This document shows, piece after piece, positions 4,415 through 23,558 of a stretch of 32,000 bases of DNA (positions are counted from its first letter, which is position 1; each line of letters opens with the position of its first letter). A program made the position numbers and the translations under genes. Under the pieces are notes generated by a model, which did no database searches, was not told the DNA's origin, and worked only from the letters and a program-made list of their open reading frames with translations. The stretch comes from an uncultured archaeon. GTDB lineage: Archaea > Asgardarchaeota > Thorarchaeia > Thorarchaeales > Thorarchaeaceae. The stretch is taken from assembly GCA_964354495.1 (NCBI GenBank), contig CAYHAA010000010.1, forward strand, positions 30,001 to 62,000, read 5' to 3'.

Positions 4415-5161
4415 CTATCGCCTATTCATCTTCATATACCGAAGGATTACACCCAAGACGACGAGTTCCACGATGATTCCCGTTCCTAGAAAGATGGCGT
4501 ACGTGTCTGGGAGCCAAAGTGGGACGGATGTATTAGATGTTTGATTTGTTGTGAGTGTAGGGGTAAGGTTTGAGAATTCTATATTAGCTGAGTAGAGTTC
4601 ACGGGTAGTAAGATAGGGTCCAGTATGACTATATCGAACACAAATGCCTCATTCAATGTCGAAGAAAAAACTGGAGTTCGTAGGCGAGGGGTAATCAGTG
4701 AAAGCTTTGACGCACCAACACTCAAGCGATCCAAAAGAGAGGCTAATTGTCGAGCGACCTTCAACGTGAATTTCCGTTTGCGTACAGAATATCGCTACCG
4801 GTGAATCTTGAAGGTCCATACCTGCATACCAGCCACTTGTATTCGTGAAAAGAGGTTGCATCATTGCAGAACCGGTACCTGGAGCATATATTTCCCAGCT
4901 TGGCATGAAGACCAAATACACATCCTCATAGTTCAGACAATCTCCAGTGACAGAATAGGGGATTTCAAGTACATATTCTGAACTATTATAGGGGGATTCT
5001 GTCCAGCCAGAGATATCGTAGTGAAATCCACAAGTTGTGTCAGCGTTTGTATATGTATAGTCTAGGTGCAAGCCCACAGGAAAATCATCAATGGTTATTG
5101 CGTCAATTGGACAGACCAAAACAGAACCAAGTGATGCAAGCAGAATGAACAGAATCAGCAT
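4415..5161 (-). CDS. Membrane-anchored surface protein interrupted by an in-frame TGA at 4649-4651 (recoded, nonsense allele, or sequencing error)
   Basis: It starts with a hydrophobic signal. After the TGA the same frame continues for 77 codons (GICVRYSH...Thr-rich linker...AIFLGTGIIVELVVLGVIL-RYMKMNRR) to a TAG at 4415-4417. Confidence 0.75.
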
Positions 5162-5375
5162 TTTGTGCGGCTTCAGATGTACCCCGACCCCGATAACTCT
5201 GGGTAAGAGAGCCAGTTAAATCTATCCCAAGACATGCATTGTGAACTACATACTATTGGCACATGTTCGGCCGTCTATGAAATGAATTAGCATCCGAAAA
5301 ACAGGCTCCAAGGCATGCAATTCCTACAAACAGAAAGAGCATGCTTGGATGATCAAACAAAGTATAGCGTGATGC

Positions 5376-6143
5376 TCACGCTGCTCTTTCACTAGCTCTG
5401 AGAATCGCCTCGACCTTGTTGAGAAGTGGCGTTATCTCAGGATTGTTGATGTTGATGATGACTGAGACAGAGAGGTCAGCAATCTCTTCCTTTCCCTTCT
5501 TATCTTTGTACGGCACGTCAACCTTGTAGTTGACCCGGTCGTTGATCTTCGCCCTGAATCCCTTCGCCTCTTGTTCAATATTATAGCAGTTCTTGATAGG
5601 GTACATGACGCCGTAGTTCACCATGGTCCCAGAGCCGCCCGCTATGGACTTTGCAATCTGGTCCATGATTGATTTGTTGTACATGTAGCTGCCAAGTTGA
5701 ATCATACTCAAGAACGCAAACATTCCACCCCCGCTTACCCGTGCAGCCTTCGCCTCTTGTACGCCGGTAGCAATGATTCGGTAGTTCGACACGAAGATGT
5801 TCCCAGCGATCTGCGATTTGCCAGTCTCGACCCAGCCATCCGTAATCACCGCAAACTCTTCGCCGGGCAGCTTGCAGAAGTTCTGGACAAAGAATTTCTC
5901 ATATTCAGACAGCTTGGCAGGGTTTCTAGCCCGCAACATCTTGTCGAATAGGATGTATGCCTTCTCCGAAAAGGCTTGAGGATCCACCATAATGGCATCC
6001 CTCATAGCCTCACCAAAAGGCTGGTATTGCGGGGAGTCAATCTTTCCGAAGGCATCCATCAACTTCTTACCTGCGTCTCCGGACTTTCCCTTCTTCATTG
6101 CCTCGACAACTTCAATCTTCAATTTTGCTAGGTCTACGCCCAT
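5376..6143 (-). CDS. Hypothetical protein with a PH/GRAM-like domain
   Basis: 255-aa ORF. LPGEEFAVITDGWVETGKSQIAGNIFVSNYRIIA matches the GRAM-type LPGE...G...(T/S)NYR pattern. Confidence 0.65.
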   Translation of the reverse strand: MGVDLAKLKIEVVEAMKKGKSGDAGKKLMDAFGKIDSPQYQPFGEAMRDAIMVDPQAFSEKAYILFDKMLRARNPAKLSEYEKFFVQNFCKLPGEEFAVITDGWVETGKSQIAGNIFVSNYRIIATGVQEAKAARVSGGGMFAFLSMIQLGSYMYNKSIMDQIAKSIAGGSGTMVNYGVMYPIKNCYNIEQEAKGFRAKINDRVNYKVDVPYKDKKGKEEIADLSVSVIININNPEITPLLNKVEAILRASERAA

Positions 6144-6490
6144 TCTAAAAACCTCGATATAGTCAGTGTTTAGGTTCTGAGAATAGACTTAAGGCTGAAA
6201 TATTAAGGATAGCTGGGACGTGTCTGATCGATGCTGTATCACGAAACTGTCTCTCTTTAGGATGGACACGGATTTCGACAACGCGATGGCATGGAATCAA
6301 GCTCTCTCTGTCAGACGCTGCTGCTCAGAAATGAGAGCCTTTGGGACTCGGTGCCATCAGGCAGACGAGTCAATGATAATGCAGGCAGCTGATGTTTTTG
6401 TCTGATTTCAGGCAAGACTATGGATAGGTCCCTGTGCGATGGCTTGCTCAAATCTGCATTATAGTGTGAAAAATGAGCAGGAACCAGTAC

Positions 6491-6520
6491 GGATATTTCT
6501 TCGATATCCTTTATATTCAA
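6491..6520 (+). promoter_or_regulatory. Inverted repeat adjoining a putative TATA box upstream of the sensor-like gene
   Basis: GGATAT-N7-ATATCC at 6491-6509, followed directly by TTTATATT. Confidence 0.35.
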
Positions 6521-6591
6521 GAGTATAGTAAAAAATGCAACAATAAGCCGGGAAGACTTTACCTTCTTCTGCCTCCTGAGGAGAAACCAGA

Positions 6592-8847
6592 GTGACTGCA
6601 AGATTTCACGTGGAGAGGTCAGCCATTGGTCTGCTGATACTGCTACCTGCAGCATACCTGTTATATTTGAGCGAGCCTCCTTGGGACACACCAGAAGCAG
6701 CAACAGCGTACTTCTCGGTCCTTGCTCTACTCTGCGTGACCATGACAGCCAGCGCCGCAAACAGAAATCGAACAGATCGATCACCGTCAAACAACGCTCT
6801 TTTTGCTGCTACAGGGTATGCCTCGTTCGCATTCTCGGGTGCGGCAATACTGTATATTCTCACAGGAGAGAACCCAGCCATCCATGCGCAGACTGCTGGC
6901 GTGTTCTTGAATCTCTTTGCCATTGCAACCACCGGTGTCATAATGCTTCTCTATAGCATCCTGGACAGACTCATCAAGAGAGAGAATTCGATATGGGAAA
7001 GGAGACTGACTCCACTGGTGATTATTGCCGTTTCACTCTTCGTCTTCGCCATCATGATTGTGGTGGCCAGACTTCCATTGGATAATTCAGTCTTCTTGGC
7101 AGCAGGTTATTTCACCGGTGCTGTCGCTCTTTGTGTATATATCGCTGCCGCCGTTTTGACACTTCGAGGAAGACATTCAAGCACAGCAAATGACCCTATT
7201 CGATTGACTCTCTCCTTCATACTACTTGCAGGAGCCTCAATCAATCACATTCTGATCCTACCATCACCATCTTCGCAATGGATAATCTCCATTGTTCTCA
7301 TAGCGCTGGGCCTAGTCATTGCGAACATATCTATAAGCTATACATTCATGCTCGATATCGGCATAGGCGACAATTTTGCCTACGGACTAGCGATTGCGAC
7401 CAGTGTAATGGCAGCAGCTCCGTTCATCTTGGCGCACTTGATATCGATGCTTGTTGGGGCAGGAGCGACCTTTCCTGACATTGGTGCCACGGTGCTCATT
7501 CATATCGGGGGCTCGGTTCTAGCAGGACTCTCTGCATATGCACTGTACATGAAACCAAGGATTCGTTCATCACCCGGCCTCTTTGCGATCGTGTTCCTGC
7601 TCGCGTTTTGGGCTGTTTCCGAGATCGTCATCATCATCTCACATTTCTTGCCAGGCTATGGCTTCGAGATGGAAACTGGAGTGCCATACATCCTAGGTAG
7701 CATAGTGTCCTCGCTCATGCTAATCGTAGCAGTTCGTCGAGTCCTCAATCCCCCCAAGGACGAAACCGGCAGACTTCCACGACTCTATATCATAGGGCTC
7801 ATTGCTGCTCCTTTTCTCCTTCTTTTTGCAGAGCTTGTCAGACAATACGTATTCATCGGGATTCTAGGCGGGCCCGAACCCATTGTTGGTGCCGCGATGA
7901 TGCTCGGGCTTAGTCTCTTTTCGCTCTATGCCCTTTTGACCTTCATCTTGGTGCGTACCGGCGTAGCTGGGGGTAGATGGCAATTCGATTCTGTTGGAGC
8001 CGCACTTGCATCAGTCTGGGTCATTGTGGTCGTTCTCAAGGCCAATTTCGAGTATACAACTGCGGGATGGTGGATTGCAGAGGCAATCATGTTCCTCATG
8101 ACAATTGGTCTCTCTTTTCTACTTCTTCGCGTGTACCTGACAGAATCTGAGGAACTGGAGAAAGCTGGCCCGGTTGCGTCAGCTTATTCACACATGTTAT
8201 CTGGAAAAATAGTAAGTCATCAGAAGTCAGCAATCGACACGCTCTCTCAGATGACGATGGATACGCACACAGACGAACTCCGCCTTGACTCACTGGCAAA
8301 GACTCTCAACGAGGTTTCACGGGCGAATGACCTTGCAAAATACCTTCAGGTAGTAGTGTCCGGAAATAGATTCCATGAAGACGACCTAGAGTCTATTGAC
8401 GTCATCGATTCAATCACGACTGCCATGAACAGGTCTAGAGTCCCAGATTCTGTGCGAAGATTCAAGGAAGACACTCAAGAGCCAAGGACAAGACTGGTTC
8501 AGGCCAACAGTCTTCTCGTAGACCTCTTTTATTATCTCTTTGAGGGCATATCAAAGAGAATCGGAGCCATTGAGATGCTAGGAACAGGCATTCATGAGCA
8601 AGCCAGGCAGCCAGTGCCAGAGGTTGAGGTCACTTTTGACGTATTGGTCAGAACAGAGAAGATAGATCAAAGGCTGTCCCTCATCAGAAGGTACTTTGAG
8701 AGCTACTCTACGGATGTGATGGAATTCGCCTATTCAAGAAGACTGGTGGAGCTCTTTGGGGGAAATGTCGAGTGGCATACCGGGATTGCCTCCAGTCAGA
8801 ATCTTCTCATTACCGCCAAGATTACGCTGCAAGGCGTGTCGACATAG
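6592..8847 (+). CDS. Polytopic membrane protein (about 16 TM) with a degenerate histidine-kinase-like C-terminus
   Basis: GTG start and about 16 hydrophobic segments. The cytosolic tail has HisKA/HATPase-like remnants (AYSHMLSGKIVS, ANSLLVDLFYYLFEG, RRLVELFGGNV) with no H, N or G box residues. Confidence 0.7.
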   Translation: MTARFHVERSAIGLLILLPAAYLLYLSEPPWDTPEAATAYFSVLALLCVTMTASAANRNRTDRSPSNNALFAATGYASFAFSGAAILYILTGENPAIHAQTAGVFLNLFAIATTGVIMLLYSILDRLIKRENSIWERRLTPLVIIAVSLFVFAIMIVVARLPLDNSVFLAAGYFTGAVALCVYIAAAVLTLRGRHSSTANDPIRLTLSFILLAGASINHILILPSPSSQWIISIVLIALGLVIANISISYTFMLDIGIGDNFAYGLAIATSVMAAAPFILAHLISMLVGAGATFPDIGATVLIHIGGSVLAGLSAYALYMKPRIRSSPGLFAIVFLLAFWAVSEIVIIISHFLPGYGFEMETGVPYILGSIVSSLMLIVAVRRVLNPPKDETGRLPRLYIIGLIAAPFLLLFAELVRQYVFIGILGGPEPIVGAAMMLGLSLFSLYALLTFILVRTGVAGGRWQFDSVGAALASVWVIVVVLKANFEYTTAGWWIAEAIMFLMTIGLSFLLLRVYLTESEELEKAGPVASAYSHMLSGKIVSHQKSAIDTLSQMTMDTHTDELRLDSLAKTLNEVSRANDLAKYLQVVVSGNRFHEDDLESIDVIDSITTAMNRSRVPDSVRRFKEDTQEPRTRLVQANSLLVDLFYYLFEGISKRIGAIEMLGTGIHEQARQPVPEVEVTFDVLVRTEKIDQRLSLIRRYFESYSTDVMEFAYSRRLVELFGGNVEWHTGIASSQNLLITAKITLQGVST

Positions 8848-13542: not shown

Positions 13543-16500
13543 TTATTGCCCAGACACGACTGGGTCCTCCTGCAACACTCTCTCCAGGACAGAGACCAGT
13601 TGGTCTGCATTCTCCTTTGTGAAGACTAGGGGTGGCTTGATCACGAGCACGTTATTCGAACGACCCTCAAGGCCGATGAGAACGCCTAGGTCTTTCATAC
13701 GTTCAACCACATAACGGGCCTCTTCTTCTGCTGGTTCAAGTGTCACAGAGTCTCTGACAAGTTCCACTCCGATGAACAGGCCAATACCGCGGACGTCACC
13801 GATTATTGGGTGATTCTCTTTTAGCGAATTCAGCTGCTGTAAGAGATGATTGCCTACGCTGAGAGCGTTCTTCTGCAGTTCAAACCTATCAATGACATCA
13901 AGAACGGTCATGCCCACAGCACAGGCAACTGTGTTTCCACCTGTTGTACTAAAGAACTCCATCCCCGTGTTGAAAGACTCTGCAATCTCCGGAGTTGTCA
14001 CAACGGCTCCAATAGGATGTCCGTTACCGATGGACTTACCCATGGTGAGAATGTCAGGCTCAACTCCTTGGGTTTCAAATCCCCAAAAATGCGTTCCCAC
14101 CCTTCCAAAGCCAGTCTGCACCTCATCAGCTATGCATACACCACCGGCTTTGCGAACATGCTCATAGCACTGCTTGAGATATCCATCTGGAAACACTACT
14201 TGGCCACCACACGCCATGAGAGGCTCACAGATGAATGCAGCAAGGCCCTTTCCCTGTTTTCCAATACTCTCTATGGTTTCCAGTACATCCTGAGCATACT
14301 TCGTGGCTGCATCTAGACCTCTGTGTTCACCGCGATATGTGTCGGGCATTCTAACAATGTGCACATGCGGAGGAGCTCCTTCACCGCCAGGCCCACTATG
14401 CTTGTACGAGCTGATGTCAATCAAGGCAGACGTATTTCCATGATATGCACCATCGATGGCAATAATGTCCTTCTGTTTCGTGCGTGCTCTAGCCAGCCGT
14501 AATGCCAGTTCATTTGCTTCGCTGCCGCTATTCACAAAGAAACAGACACTGAGAGAAGCGGGAAGCTTGGAACACAATCGATCCGCGTATAGGACAAGCC
14601 CCTCATGAAGATACCGCGTGTTTGTGTTTAGAACAGAGGCCTGTCTTGCCAACGTTTCTACGATTGCGGGATTACTATGACCGACCTGAGGAACGTTGTT
14701 TCGAGCATCAAGGTATTCTCGACCATTCTCATCATACAGATACTGCATATGTCCCCGCACAATGGTCAGAGGATTCCTGTATGATACACTGAGAGCACCA
14801 GAGATTCGTTTCTTTCGGGCGCTTAGAATATCATCCCTTGAGAGTGAAGGCGTCGGGAATACAGATTCAGGAATCCGGAGAATGATGTTCGAGTCAGGGC
14901 TGATGCTCTTCCAGATGTGGCGCTTGCTTGGAAGAGCAACTCCAAAGAAGTCGCCCTCTTTGTCAAGCATATCGACAATTAGCTGAAAATGAAGATGGGG
15001 TGGCCATCCGCCGTTGTCAGGATAATCACCTACTCTTCCAATGAACTCACCGCTCTTCACTGATAAGCCGGGAGCAAGGCGAGATAGGGAACCCTTTGTG
15101 AGGTGAGCATACAGAGTATAGAAGGGCGTCTTCCCTGGAGCAGTTGCGTGTTCAATCACAACAGTGGGACCATTATCGTAGGGTTTTGCGTTATCGGCAA
15201 AGCTATGAATCTTGCCCTTGCAGACTGCATAAACAGGCGATCCAGCCTTTACGAACAAGTCAGTGCCAAGATGAACGGTTCTATTCTCATCGGCATACGA
15301 ACGATATTGTGCGCCTGTATAGATGAGACGGGGCTCGTCATATCGTCCGATTCCAACCTCGACCCCAGCATTTTCTAATTTCCGTGATACCAAATCTCCA
15401 AATACCTTATGGTCAGCAAGTTGGTGGGGAGTAGCGACGTACGTGCTTCCAACACTCAAGTCAATGACAGTGCATTTCGTTTCCGTGAGATTCAGGCCGA
15501 TAGGACTGGATAGCTGTGGAGAGTTCGTCCTCAGCCACTCAACGATGTGGGAGGAGTGTGAGCACGGTTCTAATCCTGCAGCTCCTCTGAAGCAGAACGC
15601 GGCGTAGCGAGGATGTATCTCTTTGAGAAGTGATAGCGCATCCCAAGCAGAGCGCTGGCTGATGCTGAGATACTCATTGTCTGGTTCAAGCCTCTGTTGA
15701 TGAGCAGCTATTGAAACGCTCATGGCCAATCGAGTACAGGTGAGCACGAACAACGCGTCGAGTTCTGGCTCAGAGAGCGGAATAATCGATTGATACCCAG
15801 ATATGATATACTGTGCCACTGAGAGAGGGTCAGGCTTGTCAAGAATCGCGTAGGCGATTGCTATAGCCAGCTCATTTATGGTACTGCCGAACACCATATC
15901 CCCGAAATCTATGATTCCAAAGAGACGTGCCTTATCACTATGTGGATAATTAACAATTATGTTGTAGTCGTTGGCGTCATTGTGAATCACGCTGGTTCGT
16001 AGCTCATCAATTCTGGGGAGAACCAAAGCCTCGTAGAGACGCAGGAAGTAGTGTACGAGTTTCCGCCGCTCTGAACCCGAAACTGATCCAACATACTTCC
16101 TGATCACCGAGCTTGCCTGTTTCAGGTCCCAGTAAAAGTTTCGATGCGCAGCTGGATGGTCAAAGTTGGCGAGCCCTCTAGTAATCGACCCAAGGAATCT
16201 GCCGAAATCATAAAGCAATTCGGGAGAGTGGGGATTAACCTTGGCGAGCACCTTGCCGGGGAGATAGGACAGCAACCTCACAAAGTGGTCAGTTCCATCA
16301 CTCGATCGTACCTGCTCGATCTCTCTTCCATTTGTTGAGCTCATCAGTAACGGAATAGCTGAAGCATCACAAATACCTGCCAGATGCTTGAGCGCGCTGT
16401 TCTGGAACTCCAATGTCTCTAGATTCTCCAATCGCGATGCAATCTTCAGGACATACTCCTTCCCAGAATCAGTCTTGAGATGGAAGTTCTGGTCTCTTTC

Positions 16501-16605
16501 ACTTGGCAACTCCTCGAGAACTCCAGACAAACCATAGTAGATCTCGATAATCCTCTGTAACTCTTCAATATTAAAGCCAGGTCGCTCAGGGCCATGGAAT
16601 TCCAT
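13543..16605 (-). CDS. Tri-domain fusion: APH/hydroxylysine-kinase-like kinase, M23 peptidase-like domain and class-III PLP aminotransferase/phospho-lyase
   Basis: Kinase HNDANDYN and IIDFGD; M23 HLGTD and HLH; class [24 protein letters not shown] and GKSIGNG. Confidence 0.9.
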
Positions 16606-19655: not shown

Positions 19656-20507
19656 CTAGGCGGAGGGCTTGTTTCGCCCATATAGTCGCCCGGTTCCTTC
19701 TTCTGACATCTCAAAGCTATGCTCGGCATCTGGGAAGCTACCCTTTCGCACTTCGTCAGAGTACTCGTTGACCGCATTCCGAATCACTTCTCTGATACTA
19801 GCGTATTTCTTGACAAACTTAGGCTTGAAATCCTCAAATAGACCAAGCATGTCCCAGAGCACCAAGACCTGTCCGTCACAGTGATGCCCAGCTCCGATAC
19901 CTATTGTAGGAATACTGACAGCCTCAGTGATTCTCTTGGCCGTCTCTGTTGGCACCAGCTCGATTACTATTGAAAAGACGCCTGCTGCCTCAAGGCTTCG
20001 TGCTTCCTCTACAAGAACATCGGCCATCTCAGCAGTTCGACCCTGAACGCGATATCCACCAAGTTGAAAGATTGATTGTGGGGTCAGACCGATATGTCCC
20101 ATCACCGGAATCCCTGCATCCACAACAGTCCGTACAATGTCGGCGATACGACCAGAACCCTCAATCTTCACAGCCTCAGCTCCACCCTCTTGAAGCATGC
20201 GAGCACAGTTCTCCAGGGCCTGTTCCTCACTCACCTTGTAAGTCATAAATGGCATGTCACCAATGATTAGAGAATCTGGATGCGCCCTCGCAACTGCGGC
20301 ACAATGATGGATGATATCATCCAGGGTGACAGGAATTGTGCTCTCGTAGCCAAGCAGGGCGTTGCCTACCGAGTCGCCCACAAGAATCATATCAACACCG
20401 CATTCGCTGAGGATGGATGCTGTAGGTGCATCATAGGCAGTCAGCATGACAATCTTCTTGCCCTTCTCTTTCAACTGGCGAATTTTGTGAGTTGTCATTC
20501 GAGTCAA
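19656..20507 (-). CDS. panB: 3-methyl-2-oxobutanoate hydroxymethyltransferase
   Basis: MLTAYD, LVGDS, GDMPFMTY, AVKIEG, GHIGLTPQS, IGIGAG and DGQVLV. Confidence 0.96.
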   Translation of the reverse strand: MTRMTTHKIRQLKEKGKKIVMLTAYDAPTASILSECGVDMILVGDSVGNALLGYESTIPVTLDDIIHHCAAVARAHPDSLIIGDMPFMTYKVSEEQALENCARMLQEGGAEAVKIEGSGRIADIVRTVVDAGIPVMGHIGLTPQSIFQLGGYRVQGRTAEMADVLVEEARSLEAAGVFSIVIELVPTETAKRITEAVSIPTIGIGAGHHCDGQVLVLWDMLGLFEDFKPKFVKKYASIREVIRNAVNEYSDEVRKGSFPDAEHSFEMSEEGTGRLYGRNKPSA

Positions 20508-20594: not shown

Positions 20595-23558
20595 CTACAG
20601 ATCAATGCCCTTCTTCCTGAATCGCTGTTTGCAAATCTCCACACCAAGAATGGTTGGCAATGAAAGAAGCACACAGATCAGCCAATCATAGAGTGTGAGA
20701 GGTATGATATAGAAATTCAGTCCTACAGAGGAGAGAATCTCATTGACTACAGGGACATACATTAGCAGCAGATGTGCCAGATAGATGAGACCGAGAAATA
20801 TCGCAAAGATCCATGTACCAGGTTCACGAATGCTCTTGTGCAGTGGGAGATTGATACGTCGAATGAGAAGCACCATCACGCTCTCGACAATTAGGATAAC
20901 CGAGAGAAGCATACTAGTCGACTTGAGAAGAACCCATATTGGACCGCCACCATCGTAGAATGGATTGGCAGTGTCGGTGACAGGAGGTACGTAGGTTTCC
21001 CAGAAGCCAGAATTGTTCTCAGGAGTGACTTGAACAATGCCCAAGTATCCGGTGAATGTCAGGAAGTAGACAATGACAGCGCCAATGACCATGAGGAGGA
21101 TATTGACACCCATCACCTTGCCCAGATTTCGCGTGATAATCTCCTCACTGTCCCGAGGTTTCTCCTCCATGGCTCTTGGAGATGTACGGTCAAAAACAAG
21201 GGCCAAGCCTGGGAACGAATGAGTTGTGACAACGAGATAGATACTCTGCCACATGCTGAGAATCTCAATGTAATCAGGCATGATGAAGAGAGCACCAAAG
21301 AAGATGAAGCTCTCAAAGAGATTGATGGCCACATAGAAGTAAATCATCATACGAATCTTGTTGAAGAGACCTCTTCCTTGATGTACTCCGGTGACAATCG
21401 ATGCAAAACTATCATCAGTGATAACTATGTCCGCTGCTTCCTTCGCCACATCGGTACCCGTGATACCCATCGCGATTCCAGCGTCACTCATGGCCAGCGC
21501 AAGGGCGTCATTGACACCATCTCCTGTCATCGCGACAACTTTGTTCTGCTCTTGGTACCGCTCGACGATGATCTGCTTATGGTCGGGATTCACTCGTGCA
21601 AAGACATTGGTTCTGATGAAGTCGGCATCGCTGATGTCATGGATAGTGCTGCCTTCGGCCACAAGTGAATTCTGTTGATACACTCCAAGGTCTGTAGCGA
21701 TGGTCTTGGCTGTTGCAGCGGCATCACCTGTAATCATGACGACATTGATGCCTGCGCTGTGACATGCCTTGACTGCCTCTTTGACGCCATCTCGTGGCGG
21801 ATCAACAATGCAGGCAAAACCGAGATAGGTCAGGCCTCTCTCTGTGACTTGCCTCGCATTCTTTCCAGTTGGCACAGCATCCATTTGTTTGTAGGCCAGG
21901 GAAATTACCCTGTATCCTTTGCTGGCAAAGCCCTCGGCCAGACTGGCAACACGCTGAAGAAGCCCGCGGGTCATTCTAGAGGGGCTGTCTCTTCCATTCG
22001 AATACTCGCAGAGTGGCATGAGAACTTCAGTCGCACCCTTGACAAAGGCGACGAATGTGTCACCATCTTGACAGATCTTGGACATTCTCTTCAACTCAGA
22101 CTCGAAGGGGAACTCCTCAACAATCTTGTAACGTTTCTTGACAGCGGCCTCATCAATTCCACTCTTTCGGAATAGTGTTAAGAGGGCAGCATCAGTAGGA
22201 TCGCCTAATGGAGTCCACACAGTCCCCTGATCTGGAAGCTCCTCTTTGATGATCTCTGCATCATTAGCAAGACCACCGCAGTTGACCAGTCTGAATAGTC
22301 CTTTCCAAGCAAAGACGTCGTCTACTGGCTCTTCCTCTGTGTTAGCCACATTTGCATTGGTCGCACCCTTCAAGAGGTACACGCCACCAGAGGGGTCATA
22401 GCCATCACCTCTGACCGAGAAGAGGTTCTGGGTGTCCCAGCAGTACTTGACTGTCATCTGGTTTCGAGTCATTGTTCCAGTCTTATCACTACAGATGACG
22501 CTGACTCGACCCAAGCTCTCAACTGCTGACAGGTCTCGAATGATGACACCCCTCTTTGCCATTGCAAGCACACCCGTAAGCAGCACTATGGTTGTCAAGA
22601 GAGGTATATTGATTGGCATTATAGTCATTGCCCGAGTAATACCTGCACCTACCCGTTCTGATAGATACTGGATGCTGAAGTTGAGCGGATCACCCCTCAA
22701 GATGGGATAGACAAAGACCTGCCAGATGAATGAAATCGCCATAAGAATAATCGCAGCAATTCCCAAGTACTTTGCAAGTCTGTTGACCTTTCTTCTAAGT
22801 GGAATGTCTCCCGTATTCAATGCTTCTAGGGTTCCCTGAATCTTACCGATCTCCGTTCGTGGGCCTGTTGCAGTGGTGACAACGGTAGCCATTCCTGTCG
22901 CAACATATGTTCCGAAGAAGACCATGTTCAGTCGGTCTGTGAGAGGGGAGTCCTTCTGGACATGAGCATCCTCACTCTTGATTACTGGTACACTCTCGCC
23001 AGTTAGTGATGCCTCGTTGGTCATCAGATTTGACGATGTCACTAGCCGAGCGTCGGCAGGTATCCTATCGCCCTGTTCCAGTTTCACAATATCGCCCAAG
23101 ACAATGTCCAAGGGTGAAATGCTACATTCTTTGCCATCCCGAATGACTCGCGCTTCACCAGCCGATAACTTCTCTAGAGCCTCGAGCTTCTTTTGTGCAC
23201 GAAACTGCTGAACCATGGCGACTATGGCATTCACCGCAACTACCGCAAGCCAAACAGTCGCACCACCTATCGTATTGAAGTCAGATGGGAAGAGGAAGGC
23301 GATGGTGATCAGAGCAAAAGAGCTTATGATATAGATTGTAATGAGCCAATTCAGAATTGGAGCAATGTAGACCTGCCAAAATGCACCCTTGTAACGAGGA
23401 ATAGTATTGGGACCAGATTCCTCAAGTCGTTTCTTCGCCTCGTCTTTTGATAGACCAAGCGATGCATCAACTCGGAGGGATTTGAAGACATCTTCAAGAG
23501 GCGTTGAATGGTGCATTACGACTGTGCTATCTTCTGTGATGGCATCATCTGTTGACAA
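20595..23558 (-). CDS. P-type ATPase with a P2-like scaffold and non-canonical transport site
   Basis: TGES, DKTGT, KGATE, DPPR, TGD and GDGVND are all intact, with 10 TM segments. TM4 reads PINIP and TM6 reads VVTTHSFP. The TTG start is preceded by GAGGT. Confidence 0.93.
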   Translation of the reverse strand: MSTDDAITEDSTVVMHHSTPLEDVFKSLRVDASLGLSKDEAKKRLEESGPNTIPRYKGAFWQVYIAPILNWLITIYIISSFALITIAFLFPSDFNTIGGATVWLAVVAVNAIVAMVQQFRAQKKLEALEKLSAGEARVIRDGKECSISPLDIVLGDIVKLEQGDRIPADARLVTSSNLMTNEASLTGESVPVIKSEDAHVQKDSPLTDRLNMVFFGTYVATGMATVVTTATGPRTEIGKIQGTLEALNTGDIPLRRKVNRLAKYLGIAAIILMAISFIWQVFVYPILRGDPLNFSIQYLSERVGAGITRAMTIMPINIPLLTTIVLLTGVLAMAKRGVIIRDLSAVESLGRVSVICSDKTGTMTRNQMTVKYCWDTQNLFSVRGDGYDPSGGVYLLKGATNANVANTEEEPVDDVFAWKGLFRLVNCGGLANDAEIIKEELPDQGTVWTPLGDPTDAALLTLFRKSGIDEAAVKKRYKIVEEFPFESELKRMSKICQDGDTFVAFVKGATEVLMPLCEYSNGRDSPSRMTRGLLQRVASLAEGFASKGYRVISLAYKQMDAVPTGKNARQVTERGLTYLGFACIVDPPRDGVKEAVKACHSAGINVVMITGDAAATAKTIATDLGVYQQNSLVAEGSTIHDISDADFIRTNVFARVNPDHKQIIVERYQEQNKVVAMTGDGVNDALALAMSDAGIAMGITGTDVAKEAADIVITDDSFASIVTGVHQGRGLFNKIRMMIYFYVAINLFESFIFFGALFIMPDYIEILSMWQSIYLVVTTHSFPGLALVFDRTSPRAMEEKPRDSEEIITRNLGKVMGVNILLMVIGAVIVYFLTFTGYLGIVQVTPENNSGFWETYVPPVTDTANPFYDGGGPIWVLLKSTSMLLSVILIVESVMVLLIRRINLPLHKSIREPGTWIFAIFLGLIYLAHLLLMYVPVVNEILSSVGLNFYIIPLTLYDWLICVLLSLPTILGVEICKQRFRKKGIDL

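What the first reader, a model, noticed from the sequence alone, without database searches (positions are those of the whole stretch)
20595..23558. P-type ATPase with a flippase-like TM4 motif (PINIP) on a Ca2+-pump-like scaffold
Seen: all catalytic motifs are intact (TGES, DKTGT, KG, DPPR, GDGVND), so it should cycle. TM4 reads MTIMPINIPLL (22602-22616) instead of PEGLP. TM6 reads QSIYLVVTTHSFP against the consensus QILWINLVTDSLP (His at 21219-21221). TM5 N/E (INLFE) and the TM8 Glu (IVES) remain. Known: in SERCA, E309, N796 and D800 form Ca2+ site II, and here they map to Ile, Val and His. Eukaryotic P4 lipid flippases have Ile at the E309 position (PISL) and are regarded as eukaryote-specific. 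Inference: this pump has a substrate other than a canonical cation (lipid, organic cation or H+). If the host is Asgard, it could illustrate a P2-to-flippase transition or a convergent flippase. It has TGES rather than DGET, so it is not a true P4.
Basis: partly seen in the sequence, partly recalled or inferred. Interest (0 to 1): 0.8.

Follow-up and report, generated by a model that had tools for sequence, protein, structure and literature searches.

The report
Archaeal P-type pump, rebuilt ion site
This intact ATP-driven membrane pump of a Thorarchaeote belongs to a large, old, uncharacterised archaeal branch of the calcium-pump family in which the calcium ligands are replaced around a conserved Glu-His pair, so it probably pumps something other than calcium, but nothing marks it as a lipid flippase.

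Summary
Window 20595-23558 (-) encodes a 987-aa P-type ATPase with every catalytic motif intact. TM4 reads PINIP, TM6 reads VVTTH, and the TM5 Asn/Glu and TM8 Glu are kept.

It is not decay. All 120 close cluster representatives (64-100% identity, Thorarchaeota) keep these residues. About 40 deeper clusters, down to 33-37% identity, keep the pattern TM4 P-[IVLFW]-[NS]-[ILF]-[PVI], TM5 Glu and TM6 His. They come from Thor-, Loki-, Hel- and Odinarchaeota plus one Thermoplasmatota subclade.

These proteins form one side of a branch against canonical PEGLP pumps (SH-aLRT 100; 99 with the membrane columns removed). The same genome also has three canonical P2 pumps and two CPC pumps.

The flippase reading is not supported:
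- It has TGES, not DGET.
- It keeps the PxxxP form of M4.
- It scores best against P2A models and no better than a canonical paralogue against the P4 model.
- It keeps an invariant membrane Glu.
- Ile or Val at the E309 position is also normal in P3 proton pumps.

Best guess: a single-site small-cation pump, H+ favoured, with His as a built-in counter-ion. The substrate is unproven. I found no description of this family in the literature I could search. First readers of this scan noted the same family in several other genomes.

The parts
20595..23558 (-). P-type ATPase gene, 987 codons from TTG (973 from the first ATG)
   Evidence: ORF. Pfam E1-E2_ATPase, Cation_ATPase_N/C, Cation_ATPase and Hydrolase. 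The N-terminal peptide before the ATG is conserved in homologues.
22992..23003 (-). A-domain dephosphorylation motif TGES
   Evidence: Present in all 38 family rows examined (invariant T172, G173, E174 in P0002 numbering).
22602..22616 (-). M4 motif PINIP: Ile at the SERCA E309 position, Asn at the G310 position
   Evidence: Invariant in 120 Thor clusters. Family pattern is P-[IVLFW]-[NS]-[ILF]-[PVI]. The AF2 model shows the helix unwound here.
22473..22487 (-). Phosphorylation motif DKTGT
21507..21524 (-). Hinge motif GDGVND, followed by ALAL where canonical pumps have APAL
   Evidence: The Pro->Leu change is family-specific (position 672).
21312..21323 (-). M5 NLFE: equivalents of SERCA N768 and E771; the Glu is invariant in the family
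   Evidence: E735 in 31/31 rows, N732 in 27/31.
21219..21233 (-). M6 VVTTH: Val at the N796 position, His (21219-21221) at the D800 position
   Evidence: alignment. His in 30/31 family representatives against Asp in 85/96 canonical ones.
20883..20885 (-). M8 Glu (SERCA E908 position)
   Evidence: Glu in 29/31 family rows; canonical rows have Q 54 and E 36 of 96.
19656..20507 (-). panB (ketopantoate hydroxymethyltransferase), downstream on the same strand; a neighbour conserved only within Thorarchaeota
   Evidence: Pfam. Synteny. Absent next to distant family members.

Best explanation
The gene encodes a working P-type ATPase. It belongs to a deep, uncharacterised archaeal subfamily that branched from P2A-like (SERCA/PMR1-like) pumps and rebuilt the transport site. 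Ca2+ site II has been dismantled and filled with hydrophobic side chains: E309 became I/V/L/F/W, N796 became Y/F/V/I, and the neighbouring A and V became L and L. The acidic residues at both mouths of the pathway are lost. A site-I-like cluster is kept and sharpened: an invariant Glu on M5, an invariant His on M6 in place of D800, Asn on M4 and M5, and Glu on M8. I infer a single-site pump for a small, low-charge cation, with H+ favoured and Na+ or K+ possible. [quoted passage not shown] This would be analogous to Arg655 in plant H+-ATPase, Lys in KdpB and ZntA, and His in P1B-4 pumps. Shown here: gene integrity, conservation, clade status, P2-type fold and the residue mapping. Inferred: the substrate and the role of His.
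For: All catalytic motifs are intact and the protein has a full P2 domain set. The AF2 model has pLDDT 88.7 and pTM 0.84, with M4 unwound at the motif. The top 50 Foldseek PDB hits are all P2 pumps: SERCA, SPCA1, LMCA1, Na,K- and H,K-ATPases. The NCBIfam score order is IIA2 446 > IID 417 > IIA1 411 > IIB 396 > IIC 337 > IIIA 327 > IIIB 296 >> V 206 >> IV 109, and all are below the curated cut-offs. Distant members P0156 and P0137 show a similar order (IID lower). The site residues are invariant in 120 Thor clusters. E735 and H766 are invariant or nearly so across 31 representatives of 50%-identity clusters. The family is one side of a branch with SH-aLRT 100, and 99 after removing the TM1/2/4/5/6/8 columns. 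Family-specific losses of carboxylates are seen at alignment positions 85, 104, 302 and 766, with hydrophobic filling at 302, 306, 307 and 762. The genome has three canonical PEGLP/PEALP + NxxxD paralogues that can serve Ca2+, so this is an added specialised function. P3 H+ pumps have Ile or Val at the E309 position (PMC4937031). Built-in counter-ions, including a His in P1B-4, are an established device (PMC10654040). No M5 Lys or Arg is present, which leaves His as the only conserved base in the core.
Against: There is no experimental datum for any member. A cluster of 2 Glu, 2 Asn and 1 His would also suit a borderline divalent metal. In P3A pumps the proton carrier is an Asp on M6 with an Arg on M5, and neither is present here, so the proposed 'charge-swapped' arrangement has no precedent. 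The model coordinates could not be inspected, so the spatial clustering of the five residues is inferred from homology to SERCA site I and was not measured. Gene neighbourhoods give no functional support.
Confidence: 0.4

Rival explanations
1. A transition-metal pump (Mn2+, Fe2+, Zn2+, Co2+ or Ni2+). The D800->His swap turns a hard-oxygen Ca2+ site I into a mixed N/O site (His, 2 Glu, 2 Asn) suited to borderline metals.
For: N303, N732, E735, H766 and E878 are conserved in 27-31 of 31 representatives. His and Glu are metal ligands in the P1B-4 pumps mentioned in PMC10654040. One Helarchaeota member lies near a VIT1 iron-transporter gene.
Against: The acidic residues at the entry and exit mouths are lost, which is unusual for divalent-cation pumps. 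None of 38 members has a His- or Cys-rich metal-binding extension. No metal-regulator or metal-homeostasis neighbour is conserved. The genome already has two CPC-type heavy-metal pumps. Near-universal presence in Loki and Thor lineages looks like housekeeping rather than detoxification.
Confidence: 0.2
2. A lipid, lipid-linked glycan or other bulky amphipathic substrate is flipped.
For: There is a hydrophobic residue at the E309 'gate' position, as in P4 PISL. Ca2+ ligands are lost. The hinge Pro after GDGVNDA is lost. In one Thermoplasmatota-type lineage the gene sits between a GT4 glycosyltransferase and an NAD-epimerase, with a 4-nt overlap, and one other member lies near NeuB and CMP-sugar genes.
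Against: The A domain has TGES, not DGET. The PxxxP form of M4 is kept. A buried Glu in M5 is invariant, whereas P4 pumps are described as having a positively charged TM5 counter-ion (PMC10654040). The site II space is filled with larger hydrophobics rather than opened. The P4 model scores 109 bits against a cut-off of 431, equal to a canonical paralogue. All top structural neighbours are P2 ion pumps. The glycan-gene neighbourhood is not conserved even at 61% identity. P3 proton pumps share the Ile/Val.
Confidence: 0.07
3. It is still a Ca2+ (or Mg2+) pump, as the databases label it, using the retained site-I residues, perhaps with reversed direction like the P6 pump CtpE.
For: Sources name it 'Ca2+-transporting ATPase'. 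N768, E771 and E908 equivalents are retained. CtpE lacks the M6 Asp yet imports Ca2+ (PMC5615198; PMC10654040).
Against: The database names come from automatic homology. Known single-site Ca2+ pumps use site II, not the M5/M8 residues (PMC4937031), and site II is gone here. CtpE keeps PEGL and this family does not. His is a poor Ca2+/Mg2+ ligand. The scores are far below the P2A equivalog cut-offs (446 against 798, and 411 against 703), while the three paralogues score 617-694 on the same two models.
Confidence: 0.07
4. An organic cation, polyamine or NH4+ pump.
For: The pathway is less acidic. Aromatic residues lie at the N796 and E309 positions in many members (Y/F/W), reminiscent of cation-pi sites. 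In Thorarchaeota the gene lies near glnA and an Lrp regulator.
Against: The glnA/Lrp synteny is confined to Thorarchaeota and the genes are on other strands. The P5 model scores only 206 bits. There is no PPALP-type M4.
Confidence: 0.08

Closest known systems
P2A Ca2+-ATPases (SERCA, SPCA1/PMR1, Listeria LMCA1)
   Same: This group gives the best sequence matches (LMCA1 E 2.9e-114, SPCA1, SERCA2), the best HMMs and the best folds. It shares ten predicted TM helices, the N-terminal Cation_ATPase_N domain, TGES, the PxxxP form of M4, and the M5 N..E and M8 Glu of SERCA site I.
   Different: E309, N796 and D800 are replaced by Ile, Val and His. The acidic residues at the pathway mouths are lost. 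Scores are well below the equivalog cut-offs. The family forms a separate clade from canonical prokaryotic P2 pumps.
P3A plasma-membrane H+-ATPases (AHA2, Pma1)
   Same: Both have Ile or Val at the E309 position within a P-x-x-x-P M4 (PMC4937031; P286/P290 in PMC5387105), have TGES, and have a single acid/base pair in the membrane core as the proposed working unit.
   Different: In P3A the acid is an Asp on M6 and the base an Arg on M5. Here the acid is a Glu on M5 and the base a His on M6. The TIGR01647 score is 327 against a cut-off of 615, lower than the P2A scores.
P4 lipid flippases
   Same: Both have a hydrophobic Ile after the M4 proline and lack the M4 Glu and M6 Asp.
   Different: P4 pumps have DGET, PISL without the second proline, a positively charged TM5 counter-ion in place of the M5 Glu kept here, and usually a CDC50 subunit, and they are eukaryote-only (PMC4937031, PMC10654040). 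None of these features is found here.
P6 ATPases (mycobacterial CtpE, TC family 23)
   Same: Both are prokaryotic P2-like pumps in which the M6 Asp is replaced, which shows that such rebuilt sites can be functional.
   Different: CtpE keeps VPEGL in M4 and has Ile, not His, in M6. It is bacterial and was reported absent from archaea.
P1B-4 metal pumps (His as internal counter-ion)
   Same: A membrane His has been proposed as a built-in counter-ion (PMC10654040).
   Different: These have a different topology class (heavy-metal type, SPC motif) and are only distantly related. The heavy-metal HMMs score 113-235 bits.

Membership tests
P-type ATPase superfamily (HAD-IC) | DKTGT phosphorylation site, TGES/DGET A-domain motif, TGD and GDGxND hinge, E1-E2_ATPase plus HAD domains | tested here: met
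   All motifs are present. Pfam families pass their cut-offs and TIGR01494 scores 262.7 bits against a cut-off of 62.3.
P2A Ca2+-ATPase (SERCA-type / PMR1-type equivalogs) | Score above the curated NCBIfam cut-off | tested here: not met
   TIGR01116 scores 411 against 703.4 and TIGR01522 scores 446 against 798.3. The three canonical paralogues of the genome score 617-694 on the same two models.
P2A Ca2+-ATPase (SERCA-type / PMR1-type equivalogs) | Ca2+ site II ligands: M4 Glu (PEGLP), M6 Asn and Asp (NxxxD) | tested here: not met
   These positions are Ile, Val and His here. Canonical rows have E in 96/96, N in 93/96 and D in 85/96.
P2A Ca2+-ATPase (SERCA-type / PMR1-type equivalogs) | P2-type fold with ten TM helices | tested here: met
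   AF2 pLDDT 88.7. Foldseek gives SERCA, SPCA1 and LMCA1 at E 1e-58 to 1e-54 and TM 0.6-0.79.
P4 lipid flippase | DGET in the A domain | tested here: not met
   The motif is TGES. T-G-E is invariant in the family.
P4 lipid flippase | Score above the TIGR01652 cut-off, or a closer match than ordinary P2 pumps give | tested here: not met
   The score is 109 bits against 431. A canonical paralogue scores 107, and family members score 114 and 142.
P4 lipid flippase | PISL-type M4 with Ile at the E309 position | tested here: inconclusive
   Ile is present here, but the family shows I/V/L/F/W and keeps the second Pro. P3 pumps share the Ile/Val.
P4 lipid flippase | CDC50 beta-subunit (most P4A) | tested here: inconclusive
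   No PF03381 match was found in the 97.7%-complete genome, but the control genomes did not ring either, and P4B pumps need no subunit (PMC10654040).
P3A H+-ATPase | M6 Asp proton acceptor, M5 Arg and the TIGR01647 cut-off | tested here: not met
   His stands at the M6 position and M5 has no Arg or Lys. The score is 327 against 615.5.
P6 (CtpE-like) | PEGL retained, with the M6 Asp replaced by a hydrophobic residue | tested here: not met
   PEGL is lost and M6 has His.
New archaeal 'M5-Glu / M6-His' subfamily (defined here) | Clade separate from PEGLP pumps; M4 P-[IVLFW]-[NS]-[ILF]-[PVI]; M5 Glu; M6 His | tested here: met

The most novel reading that the evidence does not exclude
The family is a prokaryotic P-type ATPase that moves a lipid or lipid-linked glycan rather than an ion. 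That would make it an archaeal flippase, either convergent with eukaryotic P4/P5 pumps or related to their origin, and it is present in the archaeal lineages closest to eukaryotes.
Probability: 0.07. Interest if true: 0.9.

Novelty: new variant of a known kind. Interest (0 to 1): 0.55.

Why it matters
P-type ATPases are classified by their transport-site chemistry, and each new site type has meant a new substrate or mechanism, as with P5A, P5B and P6. This branch has a site built on Glu plus His. It is under strong purifying selection, it occurs in most Loki-, Thor- and Helarchaeota genomes sampled, and I found no assigned function for it. The 2023 field review expects new prokaryotic families but does not mention this one (PMC10654040). 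If it is the electrogenic H+ or Na+ pump of Asgard archaea, it bears on how the archaeal ancestors of eukaryotes energised their membrane. If it handles another substrate, it extends the chemistry of the superfamily. It also shows that the widespread database label 'Ca2+-transporting ATPase' for these proteins is probably wrong.

Tried and rejected
Seventy-five of the 76 loci where an M4 motif could be read were ordinary PE-type pumps (one PNALP; four loci gave no read), and only L025 (Promethearchaeota, a tandem pair) carried the motif. It therefore says nothing about absence outside archaea.

2. Sequencing-run search: no run held more than half of the sampled words, and the single RNA run held 7%.

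3. Literature searches for the motif strings and for Asgard P-type ATPases found nothing on this family. The Saier-lab Asgard transporter survey only lists a 'putative Ca2+ ATPase' homologue.

4. Gene neighbourhoods were checked for ten members. No partner is conserved across lineages. The Thor synteny with panB, glnA and Lrp and the GT4/epimerase operon are each lineage-local.

5. CDC50 search: nothing was found, but the control was also silent, so it is uninformative.

6. The AlphaFold DB cluster search and the ESM Atlas search returned only generic P-type ATPase clusters.

7. A phylogeny with eukaryotic P2A-D, P3, P4 and P5 reference sequences could not be built, because no tool supplied those sequences. 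HMM scores were used instead.

8. Cavity modelling was not possible because model coordinates are not returned.

9. Complex prediction was not used because there is no candidate partner.
Full report
**The observation**

Window 20595-23558 on the minus strand is an open frame of 987 codons starting at a TTG.
- TGES 22992-23003
- PINIP 22602-22616
- DKTGT 22473-22487
- DPPR 21792-21803
- GDGVND 21507-21524
- M5 NLFE 21312-21323
- M6 VVTTH, with His at 21219-21221
- M8 IVES 20880-20891

The TTG is the likely true start. The 14 residues before the first ATG match a conserved N-terminal peptide (S-x-D/E-D-A-I-T-E) in homologues that begin with Met at that point.

Pfam finds the full P2/P3-type domain set. 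HMMER aligns the protein over residues 32-848 with the solved Listeria Ca2+-ATPase (E 2.9e-114). That alignment puts P-I-N-I on P-E-A-L and V-V-T-T-H on N-L-V-N-D. The mapping E309->Ile, N796->Val, D800->His is therefore right.

**Not decay, and not unique**

The host is a Thorarchaeote, as the names given by sources show. All 120 cluster representatives at 64-100% identity keep MPINIP, N..E, T-H and the M8 Glu without exception.

An exhaustive phmmer search of 1.84 billion representatives showed a gradient of full-length relatives from 62% down to about 37% identity before ordinary PEGLP pumps begin. In that stretch the pattern is M4 P-[IVLFW]-[NS]-[ILF]-[PVI], M5 x-N-x-x-E, M6 His at the D800 position and M8 Glu.

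Across 31 representatives of 50%-identity clusters, the membrane residues that are invariant or nearly so are the M4 Pro, the M5 Glu (31/31) and the M6 His (30/31). N303 is kept in 28 rows, N732 in 27 and the M8 Glu in 29. The T799 position is free to vary.

**Taxonomic range**

Named members come from Thor-, Odin-, Hel- and Lokiarchaeia and from 'Promethearchaeota'. One subclade, with M4 VPWSFPIITT and M6 YFSTHLFP, is from Thermoplasmatota.

A scan of 400 genomes of the phylum found strong full-length matches (44-100% identity) in most genomes of the large families. About a dozen small families had only generic-level matches. Some genomes carry tandem pairs (G397; L025).

**Clade status**

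In a maximum-likelihood tree (LG+C20+F+G4 PMSF, 72 rows), the 38 Glu/His proteins form one side of a branch against 34 canonical pumps, including this genome's three paralogues, with SH-aLRT 100. The groups were defined by site residues, so I repeated the tree after deleting all TM1, TM2, TM4, TM5-6 and TM8 columns. The split remained at 99.

The Thermoplasmatota subclade is sister to an Asgard subclade inside the family. This suggests a transfer between the phyla, but its direction depends on the root and is not resolved.

**What kind of pump**

NCBIfam scores for the query are:

| Model | Bits |
|---|---|
| IIA2 | 446 |
| IID | 417 |
| IIA1 | 411 |
| IIB | 396 |
| IIC | 337 |
| IIIA | 327 |
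| IIIB | 296 |
| V | 206 |
| IV | 109 |

All are below the curated cut-offs. Two distant members show a similar order, with IID lower. The genome's canonical paralogues score 617-694 on the two P2A models.

The AF2 model is confident (pLDDT 88.7, pTM 0.84) and shows M4 unwound exactly at M-P-I. Its 50 best Foldseek matches in the PDB are all P2 pumps.

The genome (97.7% complete) holds six P-type ATPases: two CPC heavy-metal pumps, three canonical P2 pumps with PEGLP or PEALP and NxxxD, and this one. This pump is therefore an additional, specialised paralogue. It is not the cell's only Ca2+ pump gone astray.

**How the site differs**

I compared 31 family rows with 96 canonical rows column by column. 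Relative to canonical pumps, the family shows these changes:
- It has lost four strongly conserved carboxylates along the pathway: the Asp at the outer end of M2 (D in 81/96 becomes Q/S/T), E109 at the inner end of M2 (E in 93/96 becomes Q), E309 and D800.
- It has replaced Q56 in M1 with Pro.
- It has filled the site II region with larger hydrophobic residues: E309 becomes I/V/F/W, N796 becomes Y/F/V/I, and the A-V after the second Pro becomes L-L.
- It has gained Asn at the G310 position.
- It has fixed Glu at the E908 position, where canonical pumps have Q or E.
- It has changed the hinge GDGVNDAPAL to ...ALAL.

No Lys or Arg appears in M5. The core is thus a site-I-like cluster of 2 Glu, 2 Asn and 1 His. 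This is the reverse of the known single-site Ca2+ pumps, which keep site II and do not use M5 or M8 (PMC4937031).

**Mechanism (inferred)**

A pathway stripped of acids, a plugged site II and one invariant acid/base pair fit a small, low-charge ion best. I favour H+, or possibly Na+ or K+, carried on the M5 Glu.

The His would act as an internal counter-ion that lets the cycle finish without counter-transport. This device is documented for Arg in P3A, Lys in P1A, P1B-2 and P4A, and His in P1B-4 (PMC10654040).

I give this reading 0.4. A borderline divalent metal is the main rival at 0.2. The ligand set would suit one, but the loss of mouth acids, the absence of any His/Cys-rich extension in 38 members and the lack of metal-related neighbours all argue against it.

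**The flippase idea**

The review of P4-ATPases states that P3 pumps such as AHA2 also have Ile or Val at the position of the PEGL Glu, so Ile there is not diagnostic. The other evidence also points away from a flippase:
- The family uses I, V, L, F or W at that position.
- It keeps TGES and the second proline.
- It keeps a buried Glu.
- It has no special affinity for the P4 model.
- No P4 or CDC50 homologue is present in the genome, although the CDC50 control was silent.

One lineage has a GT4-ATPase-epimerase operon, and one member lies near sialic-acid-type genes. A 61%-identical relative lacks this arrangement, and seven other contexts show nothing related. I leave a lipid or lipid-linked substrate at 0.07.

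**Context**

In Thorarchaeota the gene is followed by panB. It lies near DUF1858, SCP2, glnA and an Lrp regulator, with an S8 protease divergent upstream. None of these neighbours persists in Hel, Loki or Thermoplasmatota members. The gene looks monocistronic and has no conserved partner.

**Novelty**

I found no paper on this family in the searchable library. The 2023 review of open questions in the field treats P4 and P5 as eukaryote-only, describes P6 (CtpE) and says more prokaryotic families are to be expected. Databases label the family 'Ca2+-transporting ATPase' by homology.

First readers of this scan flagged the same family in at least eight other windows. None of those notes had been checked with tools.

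I rate it a new variant of a known kind: a distinct, deep, conserved P-type ATPase subfamily with an unprecedented Glu/His site and unknown substrate. It is interesting to specialists, but the eye-catching flippase interpretation is not supported.

Noticed in passing
window 13543-16605 (-): A 1020-aa ORF fuses an APH-type phosphotransferase domain, an M23 peptidase domain and a class-III aminotransferase domain. The same fusion lies at the same place in another Thorarchaeote (L007, 1033 aa). This is an unusual three-domain architecture.
   Followed up: no
G397:C86:1226-4123 and 4616-7483; L025 (Promethearchaeota DZG_bin1.240): Some Asgard genomes carry two head-to-tail copies of the Glu/His pump (M4 PINLP and PINIP in L025). 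This indicates duplication and possibly sub-functionalisation within the family.
   Followed up: partly
L016:5693-10954 and L098:4705-9971: In the P0156/P0296 lineage the pump sits between a GT4 glycosyltransferase and an NAD-dependent epimerase/dehydratase. The gaps are 43-75 nt on three sides, and the pump overlaps the epimerase gene by 4 nt in L098, so the three look like an operon. A 61%-identical Thermoplasmatota relative lacks this arrangement.
   Followed up: partly
Family tree: The Thermoplasmatota subclade (M4 VPWSFP, with Trp at the E309 position) is sister to a Hel/Promethearchaeota subclade inside an otherwise Asgard family. This suggests inter-phylum gene transfer.
   Followed up: partly
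window 23517-23558 (-): The gene starts at a TTG, with a GAGGT about 9 nt upstream. The database cluster for this protein starts at the internal ATG instead, 14 codons short, although the N-terminal peptide S-x-D/E-DAITE is conserved in homologues.
   Followed up: yes
window 21507-21524 and the next three codons: The hinge motif reads GDGVNDALAL. The Pro that 92 of 96 canonical pumps have after GDGVNDA is Leu in 84% of the family. Its significance is unknown.
   Followed up: no
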